From the NCBI GenBank assembly GCA_964630235.1, contig CAZVUO010000001.1, forward strand, positions 603,201-635,200: 32,000 nucleotides of DNA. The letters run 5' to 3'. The notes below the pieces were generated by a model that was not told the origin of the DNA, ran no database searches, and saw only the letters and a list, made by a program, of their open reading frames with translations. Of this stretch, positions 722 through 23,656 are shown piece by piece. The stretch comes from an uncultured bacterium. GTDB taxonomy: Bacteria; Oederibacteriota; JAAXVQ01; JAUVAV01. A program made the translations under genes and the position numbers. Numbering within the stretch: the stretch's first letter is position 1; every line of letters starts with the position of its first letter.

Positions 722-742
722 CGCCGGCAGGTTTGCGGCCAT

Positions 743-866
743 CCCCTCCGCAGGAGGGTGAATGCGGAATGATTGCTCCGGGGATGTCGCCAAGAGGAGG
801 TAACGAGGGGTGCAGTTGATACCCCGGGCCCTTCGGCCGGTGGGCTCCATGGTCGCGTGCCACGGA
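743..866 (+). repeat. Structured intergenic element, subfamily 1, copy A
   Basis: Core CCCCTCCGCAGGAGGGTGAATGCGGAAT..GCTCCGGGGATGTCGCCAAGAGG..CGAGGGGTG.AGTTG.TACCCCGG is shared almost verbatim with copies at 995 and 2248. Hairpin CCCTCC(744-749)/GGAGGG(753-758). Mini-ORF 762-803 (MRNDCSGDVAKRR, TAA stop). GC hairpin 824-840. Confidence 0.9.
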
Positions 867-932
867 AAGCCCCTAAAATACAGGATAAAACCGCAACTGC
901 CAGCCGCGGATCTGCCCGGCGCCAGTCTGACA

Positions 933-962
933 TTGACAGGGCCGCGCCGGTTTTGATAGGAT
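933..962 (+). promoter_or_regulatory. Putative sigma70-type promoter (TTGACA-N18-TAGGAT)
   Basis: Perfect -35 TTGACA at 933-938, an 18-nt spacer, and TAGGAT (4/6 match to TATAAT) at 957-962. It lies about 30 nt upstream of repeat copy B and the polyprenyl synthase gene. Pattern match only. Confidence 0.4.
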
Positions 963-994
963 GACTGCCTTATTTTGTCCTGCAACGCCACCAT

Positions 995-1127
995 CCCCTC
1001 CGCAGGAGGGTGAATGCGGAATCGCTGCTCCGGGGATGTCGCCAAGAAGGGGCAGCGAGGGTTGAAGTTGGTACCCCGGCCGTAGGTCCCTGTGGGAGCC
1101 CTTTGGCCAGGGGCTCGACCGCCTGGG
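995..1127 (+). repeat. Structured intergenic element, subfamily 1, copy B
   Basis: Same core as copies A and C. 9-bp stem CGCTGCTCC(1023-1031)/GGGGCAGCG(1049-1057). The mini-ORF starts at ATG 1014, but its stop codon position reads CAG, so it runs to TAG at 1083-1085 (23 aa). The 3' tail has diverged from A and C. Confidence 0.9.
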
Positions 1128-1165
1128 ATGCTGAGAAATCCGGTTTTATCCAAGCGAGGCTGAGC

Positions 1166-2125
1166 ATGGGTGCGCGAGGAGCGGTCCGGTTGTCTGCGCT
1201 GGCAAGGGTGGACCATCGGCTGCGGGGTTTTCTGCGCACGCCGGATCCGTGGCTGCGCCGGCTGCTGGGCATGGCCAGCCTGACCCGGGGCAAGCGCCTG
1301 CGGGCGCAGCTGACGCTCCTGGCCGCCAGGTTATGCGGCCGGGTGACTCCGGCGGCTTATCAGCTGGCCGCGGTGCTGGAACTGTTTCACGCCGCCACGC
1401 TTCTGCATGACGACGTGCTGGATGAGGCGAGCCGGCGCCGGCACCGGCGCACGCTCAACGACCACTTCGGCAACAGCGTGGCGGTACTGGCCGGCGACTA
1501 CCTGTTCACCCAGGTGATGCGGGTCGCGTTCGCCGAGCTGCCGCCGCGGGTCCAGACCGAACTGGCCCGCACCGCGCAGCAGGTTTGCCTGGGCGAGATC
1601 GCCGAACAGCGGTTCCGCGGCCGGGTGTCGCTGACCGCGCAGCAATACCAGCAGGTTATCGCGCAAAAGACCGCCAGCCTGTTCGCGGCCTGCGGCGCGG
1701 GCGGGGCCATGCTCGCGGACGCGACGCCCAGGCAGGTTGAGCGCTTGCGCTGTTTCGGGCTGAACGTGGGGCTGGCGTTTCAGATCCAGGATGACCTGCT
1801 GGACCTGACCAGCCGGCCTGGGCGTATCGGCAAACCCGTGGGCGCGGATTTCAAGGCCGGCTACCTGACCCTGCCTGTGATCCTGGGCTTGCGGCAGCTG
1901 CGTGTCCAGCGGCGCCAGGCGCTGCTGCGGGCCTTGCGCCAGGGCGAAGCCGGTTTATCCAAAGTGAGAAGCCTGCTGGCCGGCACCGAGGCCTTTGGCC
2001 GGACCGCGGCCGCGGCCCGGGATTTGGTCCAAACCGCGGAGCGCAGTCTGGACGGGTTTCCCGCCTCGCCGGCCAAGCGCCAGTTACTGGCTCTGGCCCG
2101 GCTGGCCGTGGAGCGCGACCGGTAA
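1166..2125 (+). CDS. Polyprenyl diphosphate synthase (trans-isoprenyl diphosphate synthase family)
   Basis: Two aspartate-rich motifs, LLHDDVLDE and FQIQDDLLDL, plus GKRLR near the N-terminus. The ORF track starts at GTG 1010, but that extension is repeat copy B. I place the start at in-frame ATG 1166. Chain-length specificity cannot be told from sequence. Confidence 0.85.
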   Translation: MGARGAVRLSALARVDHRLRGFLRTPDPWLRRLLGMASLTRGKRLRAQLTLLAARLCGRVTPAAYQLAAVLELFHAATLLHDDVLDEASRRRHRRTLNDHFGNSVAVLAGDYLFTQVMRVAFAELPPRVQTELARTAQQVCLGEIAEQRFRGRVSLTAQQYQQVIAQKTASLFAACGAGGAMLADATPRQVERLRCFGLNVGLAFQIQDDLLDLTSRPGRIGKPVGADFKAGYLTLPVILGLRQLRVQRRQALLRALRQGEAGLSKVRSLLAGTEAFGRTAAAARDLVQTAERSLDGFPASPAKRQLLALARLAVERDR

Positions 2126-2247
2126 CACCGTATCCGGGCATTGTTCTTTGATGTCATCGCGAGGAGCCCTGTTTTAGTCGGCGGGCGACGAAGCGATCTC
2201 GCGCTGGGTGCAGAACCCCTGATAAACGGGATGGCCACGCTCCCTTT

Positions 2248-2372
2248 CCCCTCCGCAGGAGAGTGAATGCGGAATCGCTGCTCCGGGGATGTCGCCAAGA
2301 GGGGGTAGCGAGGGGTGAAGTTGGTACCCCGGGCTTTGCCCGGGGGGGGCTCCCTGGTCGCTCGCAGTGACC
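2248..2372 (+). repeat. Structured intergenic element, subfamily 1, copy C
   Basis: Same core as A and B. Mini-ORF 2267-2308 (MRNRCSGDVAKRG, TAG stop). Hairpin CCCCGGG-CTTTG-CCCGGGG at 2327-2345. Tail GGGCTCCCTGGTCGC matches the tail of copy A. Ends about 50 nt upstream of the nuoA start. Confidence 0.9.
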
Positions 2373-2423: not shown

Positions 2424-2786
2424 TTGACCACCCTCGGTCCTTACAGTACGATCGTGATCGCCCTGGTCATCGGCCTGGCGTGCCTGATCGCCGGCGCCTG
2501 GGCTTCCTGGTTTTTCCGGCCCATGAACCCCACGCCCGTGAAGCTGGAGCCGTACGAGTGCGGGGAACCCACCGTTGGTCCGGCCTGGGTGCGCTTCCGT
2601 CCCATGTTCTATTTGGTGGCCCTGGTGTTCGTCATTTTCGACGTGGAAGCCATCTTCTTGTTTCCCTGGGCCGTGGCGTTTGTCCACCTGGGCTGGCCGG
2701 CCCTGCTGGAGATGACGGTGTTCATCGCAATCCTTCTGCTGGGACTGGCCTATGCCTGGCGCAAAGGAGCTTTGCAGTGGCGGTAG
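2424..2786 (+). CDS. nuoA: NADH-quinone oxidoreductase subunit A
   Basis: 120 aa, three hydrophobic segments, and the EPYECGEP motif. TTG start lies 8 nt after GGAG (2412-2415). Confidence 0.9.
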
Positions 2787-3313
2787 TGGATAAGTGGGTC
2801 GGTTGGGTGGAGAAGTTCCCCGGAGGCGGCATCGCGCTCACCACCGCGGAATTCTTTATCAACTGGGGGCGCAAGAACTCCCTGTGGCCGCTCACCTTCG
2901 GCCTCTCCTGCTGCGCCATCGAGATGTTCTGCACCGGCGCGCCCCGCTTCGACTGGGCCCGTCTGGGCAACGAAGTGCTGCGGGCTTCGCCCCGGCAGGC
3001 GGACATGATGGTGGTGGCGGGAACGGTCTGCTGGAAAATGGCGCCGCGCCTCGTGCGGCTGTATGAACAGCTGGCCGAGCCCAAGTACGTGATCGCCATG
3101 GGCGCTTGCGCGGTCTCGGGCGGCCCGTTTACTTATGATTCCTACGGAACCGTGCGGGGGGTGGACCAGCTGATCCCCGTGGACGTCTATCTGCCCGGCT
3201 GTCCGCCGCGGCCCGAAGCCCTGCTGGACGCGGTTCTGGCCCTGGAGAAAAAAATTTCGCGCGAACGCCTGCCCGGCCGCAAACCTTTGGAGCAACCCGC
3301 AGATGCCCGATAG
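2777..3313 (+). CDS. nuoB: NADH-quinone oxidoreductase subunit B
   Basis: [19 protein letters not shown] and [11 protein letters not shown] (N2 cluster ligand motifs). GTG 2777 was chosen because AAAGGAG lies at 2764-2770; GTG 2786 is an alternative. The upstream part of track ORF 2480.. overlaps nuoA and is rejected. Confidence 0.9.
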
Positions 3314-3770
3314 TCTGGTTGTACAGCTGCAAGCCGCGTTTCCCGGCGCCCAGGTCAGCGAGCAGGGCGGGTTCGGCCCGCTCCTGCAGCTCGCCTCGGC
3401 CGACGCCCTGCCCGCGGCCTGCGCGACCCTTGCCAGCCAGCCTGAGTGCGGCTGGGATGTCATCGAGGATTACACGGCCCGCGACCTTGGAGGCGCCTTT
3501 GAACTGGTGCTGCACCTGGTCTCCGGGGCGGACATCCGGCGCCGGCTGACGGTGAAAGCGCCGGTTCCCCGGGACGCGGCCCAGGCGCCGAGCCTGGTGG
3601 GGCGCTTCGGCTGCGCCGAGTGGTACGAACGGGAGATTTTCGACCTCTTCGGCATCCGCTTCAGCGGCCACCCGGACCTGCGCCGGATCCTGCTGCCCGA
3701 AGACTGGAACGGCCACCCGCTGCGCAAAGACTATCAAGACGCGCGCCTGCTCAAGCGCGCGGGGAACTGA
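3303..3770 (+). CDS. nuoC: NADH-quinone oxidoreductase subunit C
   Basis: 155 aa with [36 protein letters not shown] (30-kDa subunit signature). The start overlaps the nuoB stop. Confidence 0.9.
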
Positions 3771-3771
3771 C

Positions 3772-4911
3772 ATGACCCCGCCGACCCCGCCGCTGCCCCT
3801 GGAACACGCCCCGGCCCTGGCCACCGAGACCCTCACCCTCAACATGGGCCCTCAGCATCCCAGCACCCACGGCGCCATGCGCCTGATCCTGAAGCTGGAC
3901 GGCGAACGCGTGGTGTCGGCCCAGCCGGATTTCGGGTACGTGCACCGCGGCATGGAAAAAATGGGCGAAGCCCTGACCTATTCCCAGTACATTTACCTGA
4001 CGGACCGTCTGGATTATCTCTCGGCCATGCTCAACGAGTGGTCGTACTGCCTGGCCTGCGAAGCCCTGGCCGGCATCCAGGTGCCGCGCCGGGCCGAATA
4101 CCTGCGCGTGATCGCGGGCGAACTCTGCCGGCTGAGCAGCCATCTGGTATGGTTGGGCAGCATGGGCATGGACCTGGGCGCGTTCACGCCGCTGACCTAC
4201 ACCTTCCGCGAGCGCGAGATGATCCTGGACCTGTTCGACTCACTCTGCGGCCAGCGCATGACCTTCAATTATTTCCGCATCGGCGGCGTGGTCCGGGACC
4301 TGCCGGCCGGGTTCGCGGACCAGGCCCGCGCCTTCCTGCGCTATTTCGAAAAACTGCCGGACATCTACGACCAATTGCTCTCGGACAACGCCATCTTCCT
4401 GGAACGCATGCGCGGCGTGGGGCGCCTGGACGCAGCCCTGGCCCGCTCCCACGCGGTCACCGGCCCCACCCTGCGCGGTTCGGGCGTGGCTCTGGACCTG
4501 CGGCGCAGCGAGCCGTATTCCGTTTACCCGGAATTCCAATTCGACGTGGTCACCCGGCCCGAGGGCGACGCGCTGGCCCGCTATCGCGTGCGCGTGGAGG
4601 AACTGCGCCAGAGCAGCCGCATCGTGGCCCAGGCCCTGGACGGCCTGCCCGCGGGCGACATCCTGGCGAAGGTCCCGCGGGTGTTCAAACCGCCCGTGGG
4701 CGAGGCCTACGCCCGCGTGGAATCCTCGCGCGGCATCCAGGGGTTTTATCTGGTTTCCGACGGCACGCCCAAACCCTCGCGCTGCCGCATCCGCGTGCCC
4801 AGTTTCGCCAATTTGTCCGTGCTGCCCCTGCTCCTGTCCGGCGTGAAGGTGGCCGACGTGGTGGCGATCCTCGGCAGCCTGGATTTCATCGTGCCGGAGA
4901 TTGACCGATGA
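3772..4911 (+). CDS. nuoD: NADH-quinone oxidoreductase subunit D
   Basis: 379 aa. LNMGPQHPSTHG near the N-terminus and C-terminal LGSLDFIVPEIDR, typical of the 49-kDa subunit. Confidence 0.92.
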   Translation: MTPPTPPLPLEHAPALATETLTLNMGPQHPSTHGAMRLILKLDGERVVSAQPDFGYVHRGMEKMGEALTYSQYIYLTDRLDYLSAMLNEWSYCLACEALAGIQVPRRAEYLRVIAGELCRLSSHLVWLGSMGMDLGAFTPLTYTFREREMILDLFDSLCGQRMTFNYFRIGGVVRDLPAGFADQARAFLRYFEKLPDIYDQLLSDNAIFLERMRGVGRLDAALARSHAVTGPTLRGSGVALDLRRSEPYSVYPEFQFDVVTRPEGDALARYRVRVEELRQSSRIVAQALDGLPAGDILAKVPRVFKPPVGEAYARVESSRGIQGFYLVSDGTPKPSRCRIRVPSFANLSVLPLLLSGVKVADVVAILGSLDFIVPEIDR

Positions 4912-5951
4912 GACTCCTGCCCGAAACCGCGGAATGGATCCGGATCAGCCGCGAGGGGCTCATGTCCCTCGCGTCCTCCCTGGGACTGGCTCCGGTGGTC
5001 GGCGAGGCCGCGGGCGCGGTCGTGCTCATGTTCGCGCTGTTCGGCCTGTGCGCCGTGGCGGTCATGGTTTTGGTGTACGGCGAGCGAAAAATCTCAGCTC
5101 ACATGCAGGCCCGGCTGGGTCCCATGCGCGTGGGCTGGCACGGCCTCCTGCAGCTCTTCGCCGACACCATCAAGCTCATCATCAAGGAGAGCGAGATCCC
5201 CCGCGCGGCGGAACGCGGCCTCTACCGCGCCGCGCCCTACGTGGTGTTCGTGGCCGGGTTCCTGGCCCTGGTCGCGCTGCCCTGGGACCGCGGGGTGGCG
5301 CCGGTCCAGCTCAACGTGGGCCTGCTGTACCTGCTCGCGGTAGGTACACCCGGGGTCCTGGGCATCCTGATCGCGGGCTGGAGCTCGGGCAACAAGTACT
5401 CCCTGCTGGGCGGCTTGCGATGCGCGGCGCAGATGATCAGTTTCGAAGTGCCGCTCGTGCTCTCGCTCCTGGGCGTGGTCATGCTGGCGCAGACCCTGGA
5501 CCTGCAGGGCCTGGTGGCCGGCCAGGCGCGCTGGCCTTACATTCTCCTGCAGCCGATCGGGTTCCTGGTGTTCCTGACCGCGGCCGTGGCCGAGACCAAC
5601 CGCAATCCTTTCGACATTCCGGAAGCGGAGTCCGAGCTGACCGCCGGCTTCCATACCGAATACGGCGGCATCCGCTTCGCGTATTTTTACCTGGCCGAGT
5701 ACGTGAACATGCTCGTGCTCTCCATGCTCGGGGCCACGCTGTTCCTCGGCGGCTGGCAGGGCCCGTGGCTGCCGGGCTGGTTCTGGATGCTGGCCAAGAC
5801 CGGCGCCATCCTGTTCCTGTTCTACTGGTTCCGCTGGACGTTTCCCCGGGTGCGTTCGGACCAACTCATGGACCTGAGCTGGAAGGTGCTGACGCCCCTG
5901 GCGTTCTTGAACATCCTGGTGACCGGCTTGGTGCTGGTCTTAATTAAATAA
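4908..5951 (+). CDS. nuoH: NADH-quinone oxidoreductase subunit H
   Basis: 347 aa polytopic membrane protein with YGERKISAHMQARLGP and EAESELTAGFHTEYGG motifs. ATGA overlap with the nuoD stop. Confidence 0.92.
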   Translation: MRLLPETAEWIRISREGLMSLASSLGLAPVVGEAAGAVVLMFALFGLCAVAVMVLVYGERKISAHMQARLGPMRVGWHGLLQLFADTIKLIIKESEIPRAAERGLYRAAPYVVFVAGFLALVALPWDRGVAPVQLNVGLLYLLAVGTPGVLGILIAGWSSGNKYSLLGGLRCAAQMISFEVPLVLSLLGVVMLAQTLDLQGLVAGQARWPYILLQPIGFLVFLTAAVAETNRNPFDIPEAESELTAGFHTEYGGIRFAYFYLAEYVNMLVLSMLGATLFLGGWQGPWLPGWFWMLAKTGAILFLFYWFRWTFPRVRSDQLMDLSWKVLTPLAFLNILVTGLVLVLIK

Positions 5952-5953
5952 TT

Positions 5954-5981
5954 GCGGGGGCGTCCGGCCGGACGCCCCCGC
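5954..5981. other. Perfect 28-nt palindrome (14-bp arms) in the nuoH-nuoI spacer
   Basis: GCGGGGGCGTCCGG|CCGGACGCCCCCGC. The right half is the exact reverse complement of the left. It starts 3 nt after the nuoH stop, and no U-tract follows. Confidence 0.6.
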
Positions 5982-5996
5982 GAATTGGAAAAGGAC

Positions 5997-6491
5997 ATGT
6001 CGCAATCGATCTTTTCCGAATCCTGGAACGCGGGCGCGAGCCTGGTCAAGGGCCTGTGGGTGACCCTGCGCCAGCTCTTCGCCAAGCCGTTCACCGTGCA
6101 GTACCCGGAGGAGCGCCTGACCTGGCCGGCGCGCAGCCGCGGCCGGCTGGTGCTGCCCCGGGACCCGGCGACCGGCAAGGACCGCTGCACGGCCTGCCTG
6201 CTGTGCCAGCGCACGTGCCCCAACGGTTCGATCGAGATCACGGTCGCGGCCAACGAGGCGGGGAAGCGGTACGCGGGAGATTTTCTGCATCACCTGGACC
6301 GCTGTTCCTTTTGCGGCCTGTGCACCGAGGTCTGCCCCTTCGACGCCCTGCGCATGTCGCACGAGCACGAGCTGGCGGTGTGGGACAAGGCGCGGCTGAA
6401 ACGGCATCTGCAGGCTGAACCCCTGATGTTCGGGGAAGCGTGGGACGGCGGGCTGCCGCAGCCCGCGGCCGGAAAGGCGAAAGACGCATGA
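5997..6491 (+). CDS. nuoI: NADH-quinone oxidoreductase subunit I
   Basis: Two 4Fe-4S ferredoxin motifs, CTACLLCQRTCP and CSFCGLCTEVCP. ATG 5997 follows GGAAAAGGA. The track start at 5952 would read through the palindrome. Confidence 0.9.
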   Translation: MSQSIFSESWNAGASLVKGLWVTLRQLFAKPFTVQYPEERLTWPARSRGRLVLPRDPATGKDRCTACLLCQRTCPNGSIEITVAANEAGKRYAGDFLHHLDRCSFCGLCTEVCPFDALRMSHEHELAVWDKARLKRHLQAEPLMFGEAWDGGLPQPAAGKAKDA

Positions 6492-6982
6492 CCGCGACGG
6501 CCGTGGGATTCTGCCTCTTGAGCGCCGTGGCCGTGATCGCGGCCATTGTCCTGGTGGCCAGCCGCAACGTGTGGCACGCGGTCCTGGCCCTGGCCGTGGT
6601 CAGCCTGGCCGTGGCCGGCCTGATGCTGACCGTGTCCGCGGAATTCCTCGCCTTCGTGCTGGTCCTGGTCTACGTGGGCGCGGTGGTGGTGCTGGCGGTC
6701 TTTGCGATCCTGCTCACCGGCCATTTCGGCCGGAGCGCGCTGCCCAGCAGCAACGAGCTGACCGTGCTGGGCGGGCTCACGACCCTGGCGCTGACCGCGC
6801 TGGTGGCCGGGGTGCTCCTGGCCCAGCCCGGCGCCTCGGCCTCGGCCAAAGGCCAGTTCACGGTGCGGCAGCTGGGCGAGCTCCTGCTCGGGCCGTTCGT
6901 CCTGCCCTTCGAACTGGTATCCGTGCTGCTGCTCGCGGCGCTGGTGGGCGCGATCGTCATCGCACGCGGGAAGGAGGATTGA
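6488..6982 (+). CDS. nuoJ: NADH-quinone oxidoreductase subunit J
   Basis: Hydrophobic 164-aa product (MTATAVGFCLLSAVAVIAAI...). ATG 6488 overlaps the nuoI stop. Assignment also rests on its position between nuoI and nuoK. Confidence 0.85.
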   Translation: MTATAVGFCLLSAVAVIAAIVLVASRNVWHAVLALAVVSLAVAGLMLTVSAEFLAFVLVLVYVGAVVVLAVFAILLTGHFGRSALPSSNELTVLGGLTTLALTALVAGVLLAQPGASASAKGQFTVRQLGELLLGPFVLPFELVSVLLLAALVGAIVIARGKED

Positions 6983-6984
6983 AC

Positions 6985-7293
6985 ATGCCCGCTCTCGGCC
7001 TGGAACATTACCTCCTGGTCTCCAGCCTGCTGTTCGGTCTGGGTCTGTTCGGCGCGGTTACGCGGCGGCATGCCGTGGCCCTGCTGCTCTCCGTGGAGCT
7101 GATCATGCTGGCCGTGGCCCTCAACTTCGCGGCCGCTTCCCATTACCTGGGCCACGCGGCCGGCCAGGTCTTCGCGGTCTTTGTCATTACCGTGGCCGCG
7201 GCCGAGGCCGCGGTCGGACTGGCCGTGGTGATCGCCATTTACCGCACGCAGCAGGACGCGGACCTCGACCGTCTGAACATCCTGCAGGGTTGA
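6985..7293 (+). CDS. nuoK: NADH-quinone oxidoreductase subunit K
   Basis: 102 aa with three TM segments. Contains MPALGLEHYLLVSSLLFGLGLFG and SVELIMLAV..ITVAAAEAAVGLA, typical of NuoK. The upstream part of track ORF 6571.. is an out-of-context extension. Confidence 0.9.
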   Translation: MPALGLEHYLLVSSLLFGLGLFGAVTRRHAVALLLSVELIMLAVALNFAAASHYLGHAAGQVFAVFVITVAAAEAAVGLAVVIAIYRTQQDADLDRLNILQG

Positions 7294-7316
7294 TCCTGAT
7301 ACGGGAGGCTTGACCG

Positions 7317-7577
7317 ATGAAAACGTTCACGGGCACGACCTGGAAATGGTTCGCGGGTTTGTTCATGGCCGGCGCGGGGTTGGTCTGTTTGGCCGCGGGG
7401 TGCTGCACGCCGCAGCGCTGGACCGAGGGGGATCCCCAGCAACCCACGCCCCTGCCCACGCCGATCGTTCTGGAGCGGATCGAGATCGGCATCGGGACCA
7501 CTGTAACTGCCGAAGCAGTGGCCACGACCGTGAACGCCGAAGGCTCAGGGAACACGACCGGCGCGGCAGGGCAATGA
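7317..7577 (+). CDS. Small predicted lipoprotein, function unknown
   Basis: 86-aa ORF. GGGAGG lies 7 nt upstream of the ATG. N-terminal hydrophobic segment followed by lipobox LAAG|C. The mature part is rich in Pro, Thr, Gly and Ala. I recognise no homology. Confidence 0.55.
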   Translation: MKTFTGTTWKWFAGLFMAGAGLVCLAAGCCTPQRWTEGDPQQPTPLPTPIVLERIEIGIGTTVTAEAVATTVNAEGSGNTTGAAGQ

Positions 7578-7632
7578 ACGGGAAGCCCAGCGTCTGGGGA
7601 GTCATCAGAGGGAACCGGATGGAGAAACGTAA

Positions 7633-9498
7633 ATGGTAGCATGGTTGGCAATGATCCCGGGCCTGCCGCTGGCCGCGGCCGCGGCCGTGGCCCTGGCCGG
7701 CAGCCGCATCCGCCGCTGGGCCGGCTGGGTGACCGCGAGCGCCGTGTTCTTGTCGCTGGTCATGGCCGCGCGGGTGCTGCTGGCCGTGCTCGCGCGGCCC
7801 GAGGCGCGGGAAATTTCTTTCCCCTGGCTGTCTATTGCGGGCGGGCTCAACCTCGAGGTTGGGTTCCTGGTGGACCCGCTGTCCGCGCTCATGCTGGTGC
7901 TGGTCACGCTGGTGTCGCTCATGATCCAGCTTTACTCCCTGGGCTACATGGCCGGGGACGCGGACCGAACCCGCTATTTTACCTACCTGTCCCTCTTCAC
8001 GTTTTCCATGCTGGGCCTGGTGCTGGCCAACAACCTGATCCTCATGTATATGTTCTGGGAACTGGTCGGTCTGTGCTCCTATCTCTTGATCGGGTTCTGG
8101 TATGAAAAACCGGCGGCCGCCAACGCGGGCAAGAAAGCCTTTGTCGTGACCCGTTTTGGCGACCTGGGGTTCCTGATCGGCATCCTGGTTATCGGCCACC
8201 TGCTCAACACCTTCAATATCCCGCTCCTGGGGCAGGCCGCGGCCCAGGGACAGCTCTCCGGGTTCTGGCCGCTCGCGGTGGCCCTTTTGCTGTTTGCCGG
8301 CGCGGTGGGAAAAAGCGCGCAATTCCCCCTGCATGTTTGGCTGCCGGACGCCATGGAAGGCCCAACGCCCGTGTCCGCCCTGATCCACGCGGCCACCATG
8401 GTGGCCGCCGGCGTGTTCATGGTCGCCCGCCTGTTCCCGGTGTTCGCGGCCTCGCCGGAGGCCCTGACCGTGATCGCGTACCTAGGCGGCGCGACGGCGT
8501 TCCTGGCCGCGACCATGGCTTGCGTGCAGACCGACATCAAGCGCATTCTGGCCTACTCCACGGTCTCCCAGCTGGGGTACATGTTCCTGGCCTTGGGCTG
8601 CGCGGGGTACTCGGCCGGAATCTTCCACCTGCTCACCCACGGCGCGTTCAAAGCCCTGCTCTTTCTCGCGGCCGGGTCCGTGATCCACGCTCTGCATACC
8701 AATTCCATCTGGGAGATGGGCGGGCTGTGGCGCGGCATGAAGATCACGGCGCTGGTCACCCTGGCCGGCGGCCTCGCGCTGGCCGGTGTGTTCCCGTTCT
8801 CCGGGTTCTTCAGCAAGGACGCGGTGCTGCTGGCCGCGGCCCACGCGGGCCGCGTGGACCTGCTGGCCGTGGGCCTCCTGACCGCCCTGCTCACCAGCTT
8901 CTACATCTTCCGGCTGTTCTTCACGGTCTTCGCGGGCAAGCCCTCGGCCGCCTCCGCACCCCATGAATCCCCGGCGGTCATGACCCTGCCCATGCTGCTT
9001 CTGGCGTTCATTTCTCTGGTCCTGGGATTCTGGAGCGAACCGCTCCAGCACTTTCTCGGCCAGTCGCTCGGCGCTCCGGCGCTCGCGGCCGGCCACGGCC
9101 GCCTGGTTCCCCTGCTGGCTTTTCTCGCCGCGGCCTTCGGCTTTGCCTGGGCGTACGTGGTTTATGGCCAGAAAGCCGTGTCCGCCGCCCTGCTGGCGCG
9201 GCGCTTCTCCTGGCTGCACACCTTGCTGGTGAACCAGTATTATATTGACGCCTTTTACCAGTTCCTGGTCCGCCGCCTGCTGTTCGCGGGCGCGGCCGCG
9301 CTCGCGTGGTTTGACCGCAACGTGGTGGACGGCGCGGTCAACGGCGTGGCCTGGCTGTGCCGGCAGGCCGGGCTCGTTCTCCGGCTGGCGCAGGTCGGCC
9401 GCCTGTCCGCTTATGTTTTGGCCCTGGTGCTGGGCCTGTTGATCATGATCGTGACCGTGCTCTTGAACCAATCCGCGGTGCTGGCGTGGCCGTGGTGA
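7633..9498 (+). CDS. nuoL: NADH-quinone oxidoreductase subunit L
   Basis: 621 aa antiporter-like subunit with WELVGLCSYLLIGFW, GKSAQFPLHVWLPDAMEGPTPVSALIHAATMV and a long C-terminal extension. The start could be ATG 7633 or 7651. Confidence 0.92.
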   Translation: MVAWLAMIPGLPLAAAAAVALAGSRIRRWAGWVTASAVFLSLVMAARVLLAVLARPEAREISFPWLSIAGGLNLEVGFLVDPLSALMLVLVTLVSLMIQLYSLGYMAGDADRTRYFTYLSLFTFSMLGLVLANNLILMYMFWELVGLCSYLLIGFWYEKPAAANAGKKAFVVTRFGDLGFLIGILVIGHLLNTFNIPLLGQAAAQGQLSGFWPLAVALLLFAGAVGKSAQFPLHVWLPDAMEGPTPVSALIHAATMVAAGVFMVARLFPVFAASPEALTVIAYLGGATAFLAATMACVQTDIKRILAYSTVSQLGYMFLALGCAGYSAGIFHLLTHGAFKALLFLAAGSVIHALHTNSIWEMGGLWRGMKITALVTLAGGLALAGVFPFSGFFSKDAVLLAAAHAGRVDLLAVGLLTALLTSFYIFRLFFTVFAGKPSAASAPHESPAVMTLPMLLLAFISLVLGFWSEPLQHFLGQSLGAPALAAGHGRLVPLLAFLAAAFGFAWAYVVYGQKAVSAALLARRFSWLHTLLVNQYYIDAFYQFLVRRLLFAGAAALAWFDRNVVDGAVNGVAWLCRQAGLVLRLAQVGRLSAYVLALVLGLLIMIVTVLLNQSAVLAWPW

Positions 9499-9505
9499 CC
9501 TGTTT

Positions 9506-9643
9506 CCCTGATCGCCGGAGATCCTGGGATCGCCCTGGAAGGAAGGTGGATGCCGGCGATCAGGGATGTCGCCTGCCGAAGCGCAGGGCGATGCAAGATC
9601 AGAAGTGGGACCGCGGGCTGCGCCCGCGGGGCTCCACCTGGGA
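9506..9643 (+). repeat. nuoL-nuoM spacer: 13-bp perfect inverted repeat plus a degenerate subfamily-1 element (copy G)
   Basis: CCCTGATCGCCGG (9506-9518) pairs with CCGGCGATCAGGG (9553-9565). From ~9537, AGGAAGGTGGATGCCGGCGATCAGGGATGTCGCC aligns to the core AGGAGGGTGAATGCGGAATCGCTGCTCCGGGGATGTCGCC. Hairpin CCGCGGG-CTGCG-CCCGCGG (9611-9629) and tail GGGGCTCCACCTGG match the copy C layout. Confidence 0.6.
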
Positions 9644-9652
9644 GTTGTCCGC

Positions 9653-11107
9653 ATGCTGTCGGTGATCCTCGCCGTACCCCTGGCCGCCGCGCTGGCCATC
9701 ATGTTCCTGCCGCGCGAGCGCGTGACCTGGCCCCGGTGGGTGGCCCTGGCCGGAACCTTCGCGGGCCTCGCGTGCACGCTGGCCGTGGCGGCGCGCTTCC
9801 AGCTCGTGCCCGGCTTCCAGTTCCTGGAACGGGCGCCGCTCCTGCCGGCCCTGGGGATCTCCTACAGCCTGGCCCTGGACGGCATGGGCCTGGCCATGAT
9901 CCTGCTGACCGCCATCATCATCTTCACGGGCGTGCTGGCCTCGTGGGACCACTTGGAGCGGCCGCAGGAATTTTTCGCCATGCTCCTGGTGCTGGTGACC
10001 GGCGTGTTCGGGGTCTTCATGGCGCGGGACCTGTTCCTGTTCTTCCTGTTTTACGAATTGGCCGTGCTGCCCATGTACCTGCTCATCGGCATCTGGGGCA
10101 CGGGCCGCAAGGAATACTCGGCCATGAAGCTGACCCTGTACCTCTTGGTGGGCAGCGCGCTCATGCTGGTGGGCCTGCTGGCGCTTTATTTCAGCGGCGA
10201 GGGCCGGAGCTTCTACCTGCCCGAGGTCGCGGCCAAGGTCTTTACTCCGGGCTTCCAAAAGCTCTTTTTCCCCATCCTGTTCCTGGGGTTCGGCACGCTC
10301 GCCGGGTTCTGGCCGTTCCACACCTGGTCGCCGGACGGGCACGCCTCGGCGCCCACGGCCGTGTCCATGCTGCATGCCGGCGTGCTCATGAAGCTGGGCG
10401 CGTTCGGTATTCTGCGCATCGGCGTGGAGCTTCTGCCGGTGGGCGCCCAGTTCTGGGCGCCGTATCTCATGCTCTTCACCTTGGTCAATATCGTGTACGG
10501 CGCCCTGGTGGCCATGGCCCAGACCGACCTGAAATACGTCGTGGCCTATTCGTCGGTCTCCCACATGGGCATCGTGCTCCTCGGTATCTGCACCCTGCAC
10601 CCGGTGGCCCTGAACGGCGCGATCCTCCAGATGTTCTCGCACGGCATCATGACCGGCCTGTTCTTCGCGCTGGTCGGCATGGTCTACGGTCGGACCCACA
10701 CCCGCGTGATTCCGGACATGGGCGGCTTGGCCAGGCAGCTGCCCTTTTTGGCGCTGGCCTTCACGGTGGGCGGCCTGGTGTCCCTGGGCTTGCCGGGCTT
10801 CTCCGGTTTCGTGGCCGAACTGCTGGTCTTCCTGGGCGCGTTCCGCGTCTATCCCGTGGCCGCGGCCATTGCCGTGACCGGCATTCTTTTCACCGCGATC
10901 TATATCCTGCGCGTGGTCCAGAAGATCTTTTTCGGACCGGTCCGCGAATCCTTCGCCGGCTTGACCGACGCCAACGCGGTGGAAAAAACCTGCCTGGCGA
11001 TCCTGATGCTGGTCATGCTGGCCGTGGGCGTGTATCCCGCGTCCCTGCTGCGGATCATCAACCTCACGGTTGAACCCCTGACCGCGATCCTAAGGAGTCT
11101 GCCGTGA
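9653..11107 (+). CDS. nuoM: NADH-quinone oxidoreductase subunit M
   Basis: Antiporter-like subunit with FFLFYELAVLPMYLLIGIWG, FHTWSPDGHASAPTAVSMLHAGVLMKLG and KYVVAYSSVSHMG. ATG 9653 (MLSVILAVPL..) follows GGGAG. The track start at 9566 lies inside the spacer element. Confidence 0.9.
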   Translation: MLSVILAVPLAAALAIMFLPRERVTWPRWVALAGTFAGLACTLAVAARFQLVPGFQFLERAPLLPALGISYSLALDGMGLAMILLTAIIIFTGVLASWDHLERPQEFFAMLLVLVTGVFGVFMARDLFLFFLFYELAVLPMYLLIGIWGTGRKEYSAMKLTLYLLVGSALMLVGLLALYFSGEGRSFYLPEVAAKVFTPGFQKLFFPILFLGFGTLAGFWPFHTWSPDGHASAPTAVSMLHAGVLMKLGAFGILRIGVELLPVGAQFWAPYLMLFTLVNIVYGALVAMAQTDLKYVVAYSSVSHMGIVLLGICTLHPVALNGAILQMFSHGIMTGLFFALVGMVYGRTHTRVIPDMGGLARQLPFLALAFTVGGLVSLGLPGFSGFVAELLVFLGAFRVYPVAAAIAVTGILFTAIYILRVVQKIFFGPVRESFAGLTDANAVEKTCLAILMLVMLAVGVYPASLLRIINLTVEPLTAILRSLP

Positions 11108-12528
11108 CCTCCTGGCTGTTCTTGGCGCCTGAATTCATTCTGCTCGCGTCGCTCGGCGCGGTCCTGCTCCTGGACCTGGTGCTGCCGCGGACCGCCGGCC
11201 GCCGGCTGCTGGCCGGCGTTTCCCTGGCCGGCGCCGGGCTCGCGCTTGCCGCGGCGCTTCTGGTTCCGGACGGGTCCTTCGGCGGGACCTTCGCGCTTGA
11301 CGGCCTGGCGCGTTTGATCAAGGTCCTGGTGCTGTCCGCGCTGGCGCTGGTCACGCTCAGCGCCTGGACCTGGGACCGGACCTGGGAGCGCCCCATGGGC
11401 GAGTTCTGGTTCCTGCTGCAGTCCGCTGCGCTCGGCATGATGGTGCTGGCCTCGGGGCAGGAGTTGATCACGCTCTATGTCGGCCTGGAACTGGCCACCC
11501 TGCCCATGGCGCTTCTGACCGCCTATTGCCCGGCGGACCGCAGATCCTCGGAGGGCGGGCTTAAATTCTTAATTCTGGCGGCCGTGGGGTCCGGCGTCCT
11601 GCTGTTCGGGCTCTCCCTGCTCTATGCGGTGGCCGGCGCCACGCGCCTGGCGGACCTGGCCCAGGCGCTCATGGGCCTCCATCACGAGCCCGTGGTGGTG
11701 ATCGGCCTGCTGTGCGTGCTGGTGGGCCTGGGATTCAAGGTCGCGCTCGTGCCGTTCCACCTCTGGGTGCCGGACGCGTACGAAGGCGCGCCCACGCCGG
11801 TGACGGCCTTCCTGTCCGTGGCCAGCAAGACCGCGGGGTTCGTCCTGGCCCTGCGCCTGCTGGCCGGCGCTTTCGCGCCCTTGAGCCGGGAGTGGAGCGG
11901 CGTACTGGCCGTGCTCGCGGCCGCCACCATGACCCTGGGGAATTTCGCCGCCATTCCGCAGACCAATTTAAAACGCCTGCTGGCGTACTCCTCGGTGGCG
12001 CAGGCCGGCTATCTGATCATGGGGCTGGTGGCCGGAGACGCGCTGGGTCTTTCGGCCTTGCTGTACTATCTGGCCGCTTATCTGCCGGCCAACCTCGCGG
12101 CCTTTGCGGTCGTGATCGCGATCGAGCAGGCCACGGGCTCGACCGACCTACCGGCCTACCATGGGCTGGCCTTGCGCTCGCCGCGGCTGAGCCTGATGCT
12201 CCTCCTGGCCCTGCTCTCCCTGGCCGGCATTCCGCCGCTCGCCGGCTTTACCGCCAAGTTCTACTTGTTCACCGCCGTGTTCGGCCAAGGGTACGCGTGG
12301 CTGGTGGTGCTCGCGGTCCTTAACTCGGCCCTGTCGCTCTACTACTATCTGCGCGTCATCCGGGCGGCCTACATCCAGCCTCCGGAGAGCGTGCCGGCGT
12401 CCCCCGTGGCCGTGTCCTGGCCGCTGGCCCTGGCCCTGGCCGCGACCCTGGTCGGCATTCTCTTGCTGGGCGTCTGGCCCGGTCCGCTGGCCGAGAGCGC
12501 CCGCCTGGCGGTTCAGCACATATTGTGA
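11104..12528 (+). CDS. nuoN: NADH-quinone oxidoreductase subunit N
   Basis: 474 aa antiporter-like subunit with FKVALVPFHLWVPDAYEGAPTPVTAFLS and KRLLAYSSVAQAGY. The GTG start overlaps the nuoM stop. Confidence 0.9.
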   Translation: MTSWLFLAPEFILLASLGAVLLLDLVLPRTAGRRLLAGVSLAGAGLALAAALLVPDGSFGGTFALDGLARLIKVLVLSALALVTLSAWTWDRTWERPMGEFWFLLQSAALGMMVLASGQELITLYVGLELATLPMALLTAYCPADRRSSEGGLKFLILAAVGSGVLLFGLSLLYAVAGATRLADLAQALMGLHHEPVVVIGLLCVLVGLGFKVALVPFHLWVPDAYEGAPTPVTAFLSVASKTAGFVLALRLLAGAFAPLSREWSGVLAVLAAATMTLGNFAAIPQTNLKRLLAYSSVAQAGYLIMGLVAGDALGLSALLYYLAAYLPANLAAFAVVIAIEQATGSTDLPAYHGLALRSPRLSLMLLLALLSLAGIPPLAGFTAKFYLFTAVFGQGYAWLVVLAVLNSALSLYYYLRVIRAAYIQPPESVPASPVAVSWPLALALAATLVGILLLGVWPGPLAESARLAVQHIL

Positions 12529-22433: not shown

Positions 22434-22563
22434 CTCATCATTTCAATAATATCCCATATAGAATATTAATTAATCGAATTTCACTCTATCTGGGGTGGGA
22501 ATTCGGCGAAATATCACCAGTGATAACCGGTTCATAAGTATAATAAAAAGAAACAGAATTAAA

Positions 22564-22644
22564 ATGTCTTCTGATAAATCTAAAAATTACTCTTCAATCG
22601 TGAAAAATGACCTTTTTGGGGTCTTGGAAGTGGATCAGGGGTAA
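22564..22644 (+). CDS. Possible 26-codon small ORF (MSSDKSKNYSSIVKNDLFGVLEVDQG)
   Basis: Only an ATG-to-TAA frame in the AT-rich gap. TATAAT sits at ~22537-22542 upstream. There is no clear Shine-Dalgarno and no recognisable homology. Very tentative. Confidence 0.12.
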   Translation: MSSDKSKNYSSIVKNDLFGVLEVDQG

Positions 22645-22758
22645 AAAATATTAAATATTATTTTAAATTATACTGGTCAGAAATTCAATTTAAGATTAAA
22701 TAGAAATAATATGAAAAACCTAATTAATATTGGGTTAAAATAAAACGAATTAATTAAT

Positions 22759-22902
22759 CCCTCCGCATGAATCCCCGGGCTTAAGCTCCGAAGGGACCTT
22801 CGGCCGGGGAGATGATTTGCGGGATTTTATTGCGGAGGGAGGGAGCCCCGGCCCATGGTCCCCCTTGCGGGGAACTTTAGTCCGGGGGACCACTCCACTC
22901 CT
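22759..22902 (+). repeat. Structured intergenic element, subfamily 2, copy D (candidate ncRNA)
   Basis: 9-bp closing stem CCCTCCGCA (22759-22767)/TGCGGAGGG (22831-22839). Inner stems TCCCCGG/CCGGGGA and CCGAAG-GGAC-CTTCGG. 8-bp hairpin GGTCCCCC (22857-22864)/GGGGGACC (22884-22891). Tail CACTCCACTCC. Confidence 0.8.
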
Positions 22903-23195
22903 GATCTCCATAATTTTCAGAAAGGTCTAAGCTTTCCTGACAGCTGCATAAAATATATTTTTTAACAGCCTGTACGGACCCTCAATATCAGAAAAGGCTT
23001 GCAGTTCCAGCACCTGACAGTTCCCCCTCGAAAATACACTTATTTTTCAAGGAAAGATCCAGAGCTGGGCGTAAGACTATTGTGATCAGCCTGCTAATTG
23101 AACCAGTAAAAGCAGGGGGATCACATCATCAACCTGAATGAATAACCCTCTGTGGATCGTGGAGACTGTTTATCTTGAATATGGGAACTTACGAT

Positions 23196-23293
23196 CCCTC
23201 TGTACGAATCCTCGGGCTTCAGGCCAGGGAGAGAATTGCGGGATCGGTTTGTGGAGGGGTGCCTGGCATTCAAGTCCAGGGACCACTCTACTC
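23196..23293 (+). repeat. Structured intergenic element, subfamily 2, copy E (shorter)
   Basis: Aligns with D: ATCCCTCTGTACGAATCCTCGGGCTT...GAATTGCGGGAT..TGTGGAGGG...GTCCAGGGACCACTCTACTC. The closing stem CCCTCTGTA (23196-23204)/TGTGGAGGG (23250-23258) is kept by three G-U pairs on the + strand only. Confidence 0.8.
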
Positions 23294-23594
23294 AAGCCGG
23301 AACAACGGTGATGAGCTAATTGAGATAATCACCTTAACCCCCTCCTGGGCAGGGCATTCCTACTGGAAGCGAGTTCGCCGTTCTTTAGGTCCAGCCCCAA
23401 AAGGAGATAGGGAGCGGCGTCAAGTTCCGGCAGGTCCAAAAACCCCGCTTTACTCAAGCAGCCTCGATCGCGCCAGGACAGGAGCCGGGCATAAAAATAA
23501 TTTTCTTCAGCCGTATCGGTTCCGGAACAACGGCAGGGGGGTTGCGTCGCGATTTCTCGATCGGAGGAAATCGCACTCGTTTCAGCGCCGTTTA

Positions 23595-23627
23595 TTGACG
23601 CGACTTGCAGGGGGATGTTAATATAAT
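23595..23627 (+). promoter_or_regulatory. Putative sigma70-type promoter (TTGACG-N18-TAATAT, overlapping TATAAT)
   Basis: TTGACG at 23595-23600, TAATAT at 23619-23624, and TATAAT at 23622-23627. It lies ~30 nt upstream of the GTG start of the OmpA-family gene. Pattern match only. Confidence 0.5.
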
Positions 23628-23656
23628 GCACAACTCGCTTTCCTCGGAGCCTGAGC

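What the first reader, a model, noticed from the sequence alone, without database searches (positions are those of the whole stretch)
743..2372. Three near-identical ~125-nt structured elements bracket the polyprenyl synthase gene and precede nuoA, each with an anti-SD/SD hairpin and a mini-ORF
Copies A (743-866), B (995-1127) and C (2248-2372) share an almost identical core, all on the + strand. Seen directly: (i) Hairpin CCCTCC-GCA-GGAGGG buries an AGGAGG. (ii) A mutually exclusive 6-bp pairing TCCGCA/TGCGGA (e.g. 2252-2257 with 2268-2273) would free the AGGAGG in its loop but cover the ATG 4 nt downstream. (iii) That ATG opens a 13-codon frame MRN(R/D)CSGDVAK(R/K)(R/G), which ends at the same position in A (TAA) and C (TAG). 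The position reads CAG in B, extending it to 23 aa. (iv) A 9-bp stem CGCTGCTCC/GGGGCAGCG in B keeps pairing in C through a G-U; one pair becomes U-A in A. (v) A terminal GC hairpin follows ..GTACCCCGG, and its sequence differs between copies. B sits ~30 nt downstream of a TTGACA-N18-TAGGAT promoter-like site and ~40 nt upstream of the synthase ATG. C ends ~50 nt before nuoA. The switch-like architecture in leaders of two quinone-linked functions (quinone tail synthesis, NADH:quinone oxidoreductase) suggests a cis-regulatory RNA or uORF device. A REP/BIME-like dispersed repeat is the main alternative. I cannot match it from memory to any Rfam family, ribozyme or IS end.
Basis: partly seen in the sequence, partly recalled or inferred. 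Interest (0 to 1): 0.72.

Follow-up and report, generated by a model that had tools for sequence, protein, structure and literature searches.

The report
Structured repeat family invading a nuo operon
The three look-alike ~125-nt elements are real, but they are recent copies of a small, previously undescribed family of folded, same-strand insertions that come and go at gene junctions of the Complex I (nuo) operon in an uncultured bacterial phylum, not a conserved riboswitch or leader-peptide switch.

Summary
Copies A, B and C exist as described: their 87-nt cores are 87-94% identical, all on the + strand. A fourth, diverged copy (D, 9505-9638) lies between nuoL and nuoM.

The organism belongs to candidate division FCPU426. 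Orthologous loci in its nearest relatives (81-85% protein identity) keep the promoter and ribosome-binding sites but lack A, B, C and D. Related copies sit at other junctions in other genomes: nuoB/nuoC, inside the synthase 5' end, and nuoL/nuoM of a 45%-identity relative.

The SD/anti-SD hairpin, the alternative pairing and the 13-codon ORF are private to A-C. The shared core is a helix (P1) abutting AUGUCGCC and a GC hairpin (P4) abutting GCUCCA. Both helices change sequence but keep pairing. Rfam has no match.

Best reading: a strand-specific, evolutionarily mobile structured element that is co-transcribed with the operon. A multi-site cis-regulatory RNA is not excluded. Genome-wide copy number could not be tested.

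The parts
740..850 (+). Copy A. P1 5' strand CATCCCC at 740-746. A-C-specific hairpin TCCGCA/TGCGGA at 747-752 and 763-768. GGGGATGTCGCC at 780-791. Imperfect P4 hairpin at about 823-843. Tail GCTCCAT at 844-850. It begins 19 nt after the stop of the LOG-family gene (721) and lies upstream of the promoter.
   Evidence: The insert is absent in L019, L020 and L018.
933..962 (+). Sigma-70-like promoter TTGACA-N18-TAGGAT (with TG) of the synthase-nuo unit. It is native sequence, not part of the repeat.
   Evidence: It is conserved in L018, L019 and L020 and in L024.
992..1137 (+). Copy B, in the 5' leader of the polyprenyl synthase gene. CATCCCC at 992-998. GGGGATGTCGCC at 1032-1043. Long P4 hairpin at 1074-1113. 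Tail GCTCGAC at 1113-1119. Then a 3' extension containing a second GGGATG fragment (about 1127-1132).
   Evidence: L019 and L020 go straight from the promoter to ..ATCCG(G)TTTT..GAGGCTGAGCATG without it. L018 has a diverged copy (G) at the same place.
2228..2245 (+). GGGATGGCCACGCTCCCT. This is a possible remnant (an ATG-motif-like piece plus a tail-like piece) of an older copy, directly upstream of C.
   Evidence: Read. Not tested further.
2245..2355 (+). Copy C, between the synthase stop (2125) and the nuoA start (2424). CCCC at 2248-2251. GGGGATGTCGCC at 2285-2296. P4 hairpin CCCCGGGC-TTT-GCCCGGGG at 2327-2345. Tail GCTCCCT at 2349-2355. A further small hairpin follows at 2356-2372.
   Evidence: The synthase-nuoA gap is 29-35 nt in L020 and L018, 0 in the P0002 contig, and holds unrelated sequence in L019.
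9505..9638 (+). Copy D (diverged), between the nuoL stop (9498) and the nuoM ATG (9653). P1 is TCCCTGATCGCCGG (9505-9518) paired with CCGGCGATCAGGGA (9553-9566). ATGTCGCC at 9566-9573. P3 is 9569-9576 with 9583-9591. P4 is CCGCGGGC-TGC-GCCCGCGG at 9611-9629. Tail GCTCCACC at 9631-9638.
   Evidence: folding z-score -3.8. The site is empty in L021 (22-nt gap) and in L018 (20-nt gap).
1166..2125 (+). Polyprenyl synthase gene (PF00348), bracketed by copies B and C.
2424..12528 (+). nuoA-nuoN (Complex I) operon, downstream of C and containing D.

Best explanation
**What it is.** A, B and C are the three youngest copies of a small family of 70-200-nt structured elements, all on the sense strand. The elements have been inserted, relocated and lost at gene junctions of the LOG / polyprenyl synthase / nuoA-N transcription unit in candidate division FCPU426.

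**Shown.**
- Each copy has an empty orthologous site in close relatives.
- Related copies occupy different junctions in different genomes.
- All copies lie on the transcribed strand and avoid the native ribosome-binding sites.
- The shared core has this order:
  - helix P1, whose 3' strand abuts AUGUCGCC;
  - an optional middle domain closed by UCGC/GCGA;
  - GC hairpin P4, whose 3' strand abuts the tail GCUCCA(C/U).
- P1 and P4 change sequence between copies but keep pairing.

**Inferred.**
- The element is a non-autonomous mobile sequence, copied by a strand-specific, single-strand-based route. It has no terminal inverted repeats and no fixed target duplication.
- It is co-transcribed with the operon.
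- It persists because it folds into a compact RNA module that is neutral, or mildly useful as an intercistronic stabilising or processing hairpin in the way REP elements are.

**Not a family feature.** The SD/anti-SD hairpin, the alternative pairing and the 13-codon ORF are accidents of the A-C subfamily. They are not the working parts.
For: **Empty sites**
- L019 (synthase 81% identical) and L020 (83%) keep the promoter and the ..GAGGCTGAGCATG ribosome-binding region but lack A and B.
- The synthase-nuoA spacer is 298 nt in the window. It is 29-35 nt in L020 and L018, and 0 in the 89%-identical contig.
- The nuoL-nuoM spacer is 154 nt in the window. It is 22 nt in L021 and 20 nt in L018.

**Copies at other junctions**
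- E lies between nuoB and nuoC of GCA_040756875.1. That site is empty in the window and in L019.
- F lies inside the first codons of the synthase gene in L020. It puts the original ATG out of frame.
- H lies in the nuoL-nuoM spacer of a relative with a 45%-identical synthase.

**Specificity of the core**
- A two-motif search over about 160 kb of FCPU426 nuo loci finds only A-F and H, all on the + strand, apart from two minus-strand hits in coding sequence that I take to be chance.

**Covariation**
- On a hand-extracted alignment, 87% of cells pair.
- 10 of 17 pairs change on both sides.
- 0 of 500 shuffles reach the observed values.
- Slid controls pair at only 35-48%.
- The P4 hairpins of D and F differ by two compensatory swaps.

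**Absent features**
- No inverted-repeat pair (30 nt or longer) coincides with element ends.
- There is no intrinsic-terminator U-tract after A-D.
- There is no Rfam match.
Against: - Genome-wide copy number and orientation could not be measured. All fetched loci are nuo loci, and the assembly breaks inside B and C can be explained by A-C alone.
- All seven members lie in about 61 kb of the synthase-nuo unit. None lies in about 81 kb of flanking sequence. That pattern fits an operon-specific function at least as well as a selfish element.
- No transposase, reverse transcriptase or recombinase is present in the window.
- The leader position (B) is also occupied by a diverged copy in L018. In L024 it holds a related hairpin followed by T9. 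This suggests vertical persistence there.
- The P1/P4 alignment was made by hand. Unsupervised RNAalifold did not recover those helices.
Confidence: 0.5

Rival explanations
1. **Multi-site cis-regulatory RNA.** The element is a binding module for one trans-acting factor, either a protein or a small molecule. It is placed in the leader and in several intercistronic spacers so that the synthase and nuo genes are controlled together. This would resemble the three PyrR attenuators of the Bacillus subtilis pyr operon.
For: - All members are on the sense strand, in one operon, across genomes.
- Single-stranded motifs (AUGUCGCC, GCUCCA, GUGAAUGCG-like) are conserved and flanked by co-varying helices.
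- These motifs survive in an AT-richer relative with only 45% synthase identity.
- The leader site is occupied in the window, in L018 and, in part, in L024. In L024 the hairpin is followed by T9 directly before the ATG, which looks like an attenuator.
Against: - Copies are missing from orthologous sites in the closest relatives.
- One copy sits inside a coding region.
- One copy lies upstream of the promoter.
- The distance from the element to the next start codon ranges from 0 to about 320 nt.
- There is no U-tract after the hairpins in the window.
- No candidate binding protein was identified.
Confidence: 0.25
2. **Ordinary genome-wide dispersed repeat** (REP/BIME, MITE or IS200/IS605-derived PATE). 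Many copies would be scattered through intergenic DNA and mobilised by a transposase encoded elsewhere. The clustering seen here would be a sampling effect.
For: - The copies are near-identical.
- Empty sites exist in relatives.
- Assemblies of at least six sequencing runs break inside B and C.
- A Y1 (IS200-like) transposase gene and REP-like palindromes are present in relative L029.
- There are no terminal inverted repeats or target duplications. This fits single-strand transposition.
Against: - 7 of 7 copies share one orientation.
- The hairpin sequences differ between copies, so a transposase could not recognise them by sequence.
- A five-frame peptide search for ORF calls that run through the element found nothing in 5.8 billion proteins.
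- A 20-mer scan of 185,579 species genomes and 241 million metagenome records found only chance hits and one 38-nt fragment.
- The L029 palindromes are a different sequence family.
Confidence: 0.15
3. **The first reader's model.** An SD-sequestering switch, in which CCCTCC/GGAGGG competes with TCCGCA/TGCGGA, gates translation of a 13-codon upstream ORF. That ORF in turn controls the downstream quinone-linked genes.
For: The hairpins and the ORF exist in A-C as described.
Against: - None of these features is present in D, E, F or H.
- The ATG frame differs or is absent in those copies.
- B lacks the stop codon.
- The only substitution in this region of C breaks hairpin (i).
- Folding energies of A-C are not unusual, with z-scores of -0.4 to -1.6.
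- A is not in a leader.
- The elements are absent from the nearest relatives.
Confidence: 0.05

Closest known systems
REP/BIME elements in enterobacterial operons (from my own knowledge)
   Same: - They are intergenic and lie within or after operons.
- They are co-transcribed.
- They form hairpins.
- They are present or absent between close relatives.
- They can protect upstream mRNA from 3' exonucleases.
   Different: - REPs are 20-40-nt simple imperfect palindromes with a conserved GTAG.
- They occur in both orientations, often as inverted pairs, and in hundreds of copies.
- They are tied to a RAYT gene.
- The elements here are 70-200 nt with several helices and conserved single-stranded motifs.
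- The elements here have a single orientation and have been seen in only one operon so far.
IS200/IS605-derived non-autonomous elements (PATEs) (from my own knowledge)
   Same: - There are no terminal inverted repeats.
- There is no fixed target duplication.
- Insertion is strand-specific.
- There are hairpins near both ends, and the 3' hairpin is followed by a tail of about 8-10 nt.
   Different: - In PATEs the end hairpins are conserved in sequence, because TnpA recognises them. Here the hairpins vary freely and the flanking single-stranded motifs are conserved instead.
- No tnpA or tnpB gene is linked to the elements here.
- No clear target tetranucleotide could be defined.
PyrR-dependent attenuators of the Bacillus subtilis pyr operon (from my own knowledge)
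   Same: - There are several homologous structured sites on the sense strand.
- They lie in the leader and in intercistronic spacers of a single operon.
- A conserved motif is presented by variable stems.
   Different: - PyrR sites are conserved at orthologous positions, and each precedes a terminator with a U-tract.
- The copies here are gained and lost between close relatives.
- They lack U-tracts in the window.
- One copy interrupts a coding region.
Integron attC sites (from my own knowledge)
   Same: - They are strand-specific folded sites between co-oriented genes.
- Their ends are conserved and their paired centre is variable.
   Different: - The elements here have no R'/R'' core sites (GTTRRRY).
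- No integrase was seen.
- The nuo genes are not cassettes.

Membership tests
Any Rfam 15 family (riboswitch, ribozyme, leader, sRNA) | A covariance-model match at or near the gathering score. | tested here: not met
   - The whole window at gathering thresholds gave 0 hits.
- E-value searches of 600-2500, 9450-9700 and L029 18030-18290 gave only weak hits far below gathering scores, such as miRNA models.
Conserved cis-regulatory leader (riboswitch-like) | Presence at the orthologous position in related genomes. | tested here: not met
   - A, C and D are absent from every close relative examined.
- B is absent from L019 and L020. A diverged copy is present in L018, and a partial 3' module in L024.
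uORF / leader-peptide device | A conserved reading frame and stop position across family members. | tested here: not met
   - The frame is kept only in A and C.
- B reads through the stop.
- D, E, F and H have no equivalent ORF or use a different frame.
Intrinsic terminator / attenuator | A GC hairpin followed by a U-run. | tested here: not met
   - No terminator-like site overlaps A-D.
- Only the related leader hairpin in L024 has T9.
DDE-type MITE | Terminal inverted repeats and a fixed-length target-site duplication. | tested here: not met
   - No inverted-repeat pair (30 nt or longer) coincides with element ends.
- Junction microhomologies are 2-7 nt and differ from copy to copy.
REP/BIME (RAYT-mobilised) | A short palindromic unit, both orientations or inverted pairs, many copies, and a linked RAYT gene. 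| tested here: not met
   - The unit is 70-200 nt and multi-helix.
- 7 of 7 copies share one strand.
- There is no Y1 transposase in the window.
- Genome-wide copy number is not testable here.
IS200/IS605-derived PATE | Conserved subterminal hairpins recognised by TnpA, and insertion 3' of a fixed tetra- or pentanucleotide. | tested here: inconclusive
   - The hairpins are present, but their sequences differ between copies.
- The 5' flanks end in CAT, TTT or TTG, with no fixed target.
- A Y1_Tnp gene was seen only in L029, next to a different palindrome family.
tRNA / tmRNA-like element | Cloverleaf or tmRNA features detectable by ARAGORN. | tested here: not met
   - ARAGORN finds no gene in the window.
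- The GCUCCACC tail only resembles a tRNA-Ala or tmRNA 3' end.
Group I / group II intron | Canonical splice boundaries: a 3'-terminal G for group I; 5' GUGYG and 3' AY for group II. | tested here: not met
   The boundaries of F, fixed by the coding sequence, allow only ..CCA..CAC or ..ACC as the 3' end and CCCC.. as the 5' end. The elements are as short as about 70 nt.

The most novel reading that the evidence does not exclude
The AUGUCGCC/GCUCCA element may be a new class of operon-resident regulatory RNA. In this reading a folded module binds one common factor or metabolite, possibly redox- or quinone-related. Duplication has spread it to several junctions of the polyprenyl synthase and Complex I operon, so one signal tunes quinone-tail synthesis and NADH:quinone oxidoreductase subunit stoichiometry at several points. 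It would be conserved across candidate phylum FCPU426 and able to relocate.
Probability: 0.2. Interest if true: 0.8.

Novelty: new variant of a known kind. Interest (0 to 1): 0.5.

Why it matters
- **As a mobile element.** It would be an undescribed small-repeat family, in a phylum known only from metagenomes, that is both strand-specific and structure-constrained. It would also be a caution: three near-identical "leaders" can be insertions rather than regulators.
- **As a functional RNA.** It would be the first cis-acting RNA tied to a Complex I and quinone-tail operon, and a rare case of a regulatory module that multiplies within its own operon.
- **Practical use.** The conserved core gives a concrete search model for the available FCPU426 genomes: helix P1 ending at AUGUCGCC, then hairpin P4 ending at GCUCCA.

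Tried and rejected
- **20-mer scans of public collections.** These covered 185,579 species genomes, 241 million metagenome records and IMG/VR.
  - They returned only chance matches.
  - One 38-nt fragment lies beside an N-gap inside a formate-THF ligase gene of a gammaproteobacterial MAG. This is probably a scaffolding chimera.
- **Two-motif scan of IMG/VR.** It gave four chance hits, none with the helices.
- **Five-frame peptide query.** This looked for spurious ORF calls running through other copies and found nothing.
- **Unsupervised MAFFT plus RNAalifold on A, C, D and E.** The consensus was weak and different from mine: -10.6 kcal/mol with a covariation term of +2.9.
- **Single-sequence folding of A-C.** The energies are no better than those of shuffled sequences, with z-scores of -0.4 to -1.6.
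- **Structural resemblances considered and dropped:**
  - T-box resemblance (UGGUACC): no Rfam hit.
  - tRNA-Ala or tmRNA-like tail: ARAGORN is negative.
  - Self-splicing intron: the boundaries and the size are wrong.
  - Integron attC: no core sites.
- **The ATG inside AUGUCGCC as a start codon.** It is in frame with nuoM in D, but out of frame in E and F.
- **A tail-to-loop pseudoknot.** The candidate partners differ in place and sequence between copies.
- **CsrA-like GGA sites.** This is speculation only.
- **A link between the elements and units X1/X2 at 22757-23300.** They share only a 10-mer, and nhmmer finds no match.
- **Covariance model.** A relaxed motif-plus-hairpin scan of all fetched loci added no members.
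Full report
**Observation**

The three copies are real.
- The repeat finder reports one 115-nt direct family at 742-856, 994-1108 and 2247-2361.
- A 20-mer from the core occurs exactly three times on the + strand, against 0 expected.
- The 87-nt cores are 87-94% identical.

- Hairpin (i), pairing (ii), the 13-codon frames and the variable terminal GC hairpin are as described.
- The single substitution in C (G2262A) breaks hairpin (i) but lies in the loop of pairing (ii).
- Stem (iv) is degraded in A, where 6 of 9 positions pair.
- Single-sequence folding energies of A-C are not exceptional, with z-scores of -0.4 to -1.6.
- The promoter-like site at 933-962 is confirmed.

**Organism and context**

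- The polyprenyl synthase (1166-2125) has its closest named homologue in "candidate division FCPU426 bacterium", at 73% identity. The SpoIIE-type phosphatase downstream of nuoN gives the same assignment.
- The gene order is FolD, LOG-family gene, synthase, nuoA-N, phosphatase. It is kept in every relative fetched.
- Rfam 15 has no match to any copy.
- No transposase or reverse transcriptase is encoded in the window.

**The copies are insertions**

- L019 and L020 have synthases 81% and 83% identical to the window's.
  - The promoter (..CATTGACAGG..TTTGATAGGATGRCTSCC) is conserved there.
  - So is the ribosome-binding region (..GAGGCTGAGCATG).
  - A and B are missing.
- The synthase-nuoA spacer is 298 nt in the window. 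Elsewhere it is:
  - 29 nt in L020;
  - 35 nt in L018;
  - 0 in the 89%-identical contig;
  - filled by an unrelated hairpin in L019.
- Public assemblies of the same organism from several sequencing runs break inside B and C. That shows repeats longer than the assembler's word size. A-C alone can explain it.

**The family is larger**

| Copy | Location | Key features |
|---|---|---|
| D | window 9505-9638, the 154-nt nuoL-nuoM spacer | shares GGGATGTCGCC, GGTGGATGC, and a GC hairpin followed by GGGGCTCCACC; folding z-score -3.8; site empty in L021 (22-nt gap) and L018 (20-nt gap) |
| E | between nuoB and nuoC of GCA_040756875.1 | begins CATCCCC, has GGGGATGTCGCC, ends GGGGGCTCC directly before the nuoC ATG; the window and L019 have the usual overlapping stop and start there |
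| F | inside the first codons of the synthase gene in L020 | carries CGGGATGCCGC and the 3' module ..GGCGCCCGGGGCTGCGCCCCGGGGGCTCCACC; puts the original ATG out of frame |
| H | nuoL-nuoM spacer of L029, a relative with 45% synthase identity and lower GC | a minimal version: CCTGCC-loop-GGCAGG, ATGTCGC, ACCGA..UCGGU, GCTCCACC |
| G | same leader position as B, in L018 | diverged copy |

- The 54%-identity relative L024 has, at the leader position, a related hairpin (..GGAGGGTACCCCGCGGGC..) followed by T9 and the ATG.
- A two-motif search was run over about 160 kb of these loci. On the + strand it returns only A-F and H. It also gives two minus-strand hits in coding sequence, which I take to be chance.
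- A relaxed motif-plus-hairpin scan adds nothing.

**What is conserved**

The shared core is:
- helix P1, whose 3' strand directly precedes or overlaps AUGUCGCC;
- an optional middle domain closed by UCGC/GCGA;
- hairpin P4, whose 3' strand directly precedes GCUCCA(C/U);
- in most copies, a GUGAAUGCG-like motif inside the P1 insert.

P1 and P4 differ in sequence between copies yet pair.
- P1 reads CCCC/GGGG in A-C and E, CCCUGAUCGCCGG/CCGGCGAUCAGGG in D, CCCGC/GCGGG in F and CCUGCC/GGCAGG in H.
- The P4 hairpins of D and F differ by two compensatory swaps.
- On a hand-extracted alignment, 87% of cells pair.
- 10 of 17 pairs change on both sides.
- No shuffle of 500 reaches the observed values.
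- Slid controls pair at 35-48%.

Caveat: I chose the strands by their pairing, and unsupervised RNAalifold on full-length copies did not recover them. The adjacency of each helix to a conserved motif is the non-circular part of this evidence.

**Mechanism**

- There are no terminal inverted repeats.
- There is no fixed target duplication. The junctions show 2-7-nt microhomologies that differ per copy.
- All seven members lie on the transcribed strand.
- None destroys a native ribosome-binding site.
- No U-tract follows the hairpins in the window.

I therefore favour a non-autonomous, strand-specific mobile element that is co-transcribed and folds into a compact module. It would be comparable in effect to REP hairpins. 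The enzyme that copies it is unknown. A Y1 transposase gene is present in L029, but it sits among a different palindrome family.

**Why a function is not excluded**

- All seven members lie within the roughly 61 kb of synthase-nuo sequence sampled. None lies in about 81 kb of flanking DNA from the same loci.
- The motifs survive large sequence divergence.
- The leader site seems to be kept in several lineages.
- A multi-site regulatory RNA, like the PyrR attenuators, fits these points.
- It fits poorly with four others:
  - the gain and loss between close relatives;
  - the copy inside a coding region;
  - the copy upstream of the promoter;
  - the variable distance to the next start codon.

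**Limits**

- As a result, the copy number and orientation elsewhere in these genomes remain unknown.
- That scan is the decisive missing test.

Noticed in passing
window 22434-23656: An AT-rich non-coding island of about 1.2 kb in a GC-rich genome. It holds two related GC-rich structured units on the + strand: X1 at about 22757-22915 and X2 at about 23192-23300. The outer stem CCCTCCGCA/TGCGGAGGG in X1 becomes CCCTCTGTA/TGTGGAGGG in X2, which are G-U-compatible changes. There is no Rfam match. Apart from a 64-nt match at its 3' edge in L021, the island (and X1/X2 themselves) is not found in relatives L021 and L023. A 20.5-kb public contig of the same organism ends inside X1, so X1 may also be repeated.
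   Followed up: partly
L024 9895-10003 (GCA_030619365.1); identical in L025: In a relative with 54% synthase identity, the same TTGACA-N18-TAGGAT promoter is followed by a short leader. The leader ends in CCCGCGGGCAAGACCGCGGG plus T9, immediately before the synthase ATG. This looks like a transcription attenuator for the synthase-nuo operon.
   Followed up: partly
L029 1-581, 9640-9730, 10930-11260 and 18075-18110: This distant relative encodes a Y1 (IS200-like, PF01797) transposase with a DnaA_C-like tail. It carries REP-like palindromes (CAGCCTGCCCGGCGTA, in both orientations) in the LOG-synthase and nuoL-nuoM spacers. It also has two long inverted repeats, with arms of about 30 bp, in the synthase-nuoA spacer. 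The same three junctions act as insertion-permissive sites in several lineages.
   Followed up: partly
L019 1166-1290: At the position of copy C, the 81% relative has an unrelated 125-nt spacer. It forms a very stable hairpin (CTCCCCCTACCCCCTCTTTCGCAAAGAGGGGGAGAAGGGGGAG), with a folding z-score of -5.4.
   Followed up: no
L002 6416-6462 (uncultured Gammaproteobacteria MAG CAYUUX010000006.1): A 38-nt stretch that matches the element core at 36 of 38 positions (GGTGAATGCGGGATCCCTGCTCCGGGGATGTCGCCAAG). It sits next to a run of 10 N, inside an AT-rich formate-tetrahydrofolate ligase gene. It is probably a scaffolding chimera from a co-assembly that also contained an FCPU426 organism.
   Followed up: partly
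window 2126-2246 and 1118-1137: The extra spacer upstream of C, and the tail-end extension of B, contain fragments that resemble family motifs. These are GATGTCATCGCGAGGAGCCC, GGGATGGCCACGCTCCCT and CGCCTGGGATGCTG. They suggest older, decayed or nested copies.
   Followed up: no
P0002 contig (JGI sample 3300075153; gene table only): The closest relative, with an 89%-identical synthase, has a 98-nt nuoB-nuoC gap. It also has a 69-aa minus-strand ORF call covering a leader of at least 206 nt. Both could hide further copies. The DNA was not retrievable.
   Followed up: no
window 7317-7577: A small ORF of 86 aa with no Pfam match lies between nuoK and nuoL. A counterpart of 68 aa lies at the same place in L018, so it may be an extra small subunit.
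   Followed up: no
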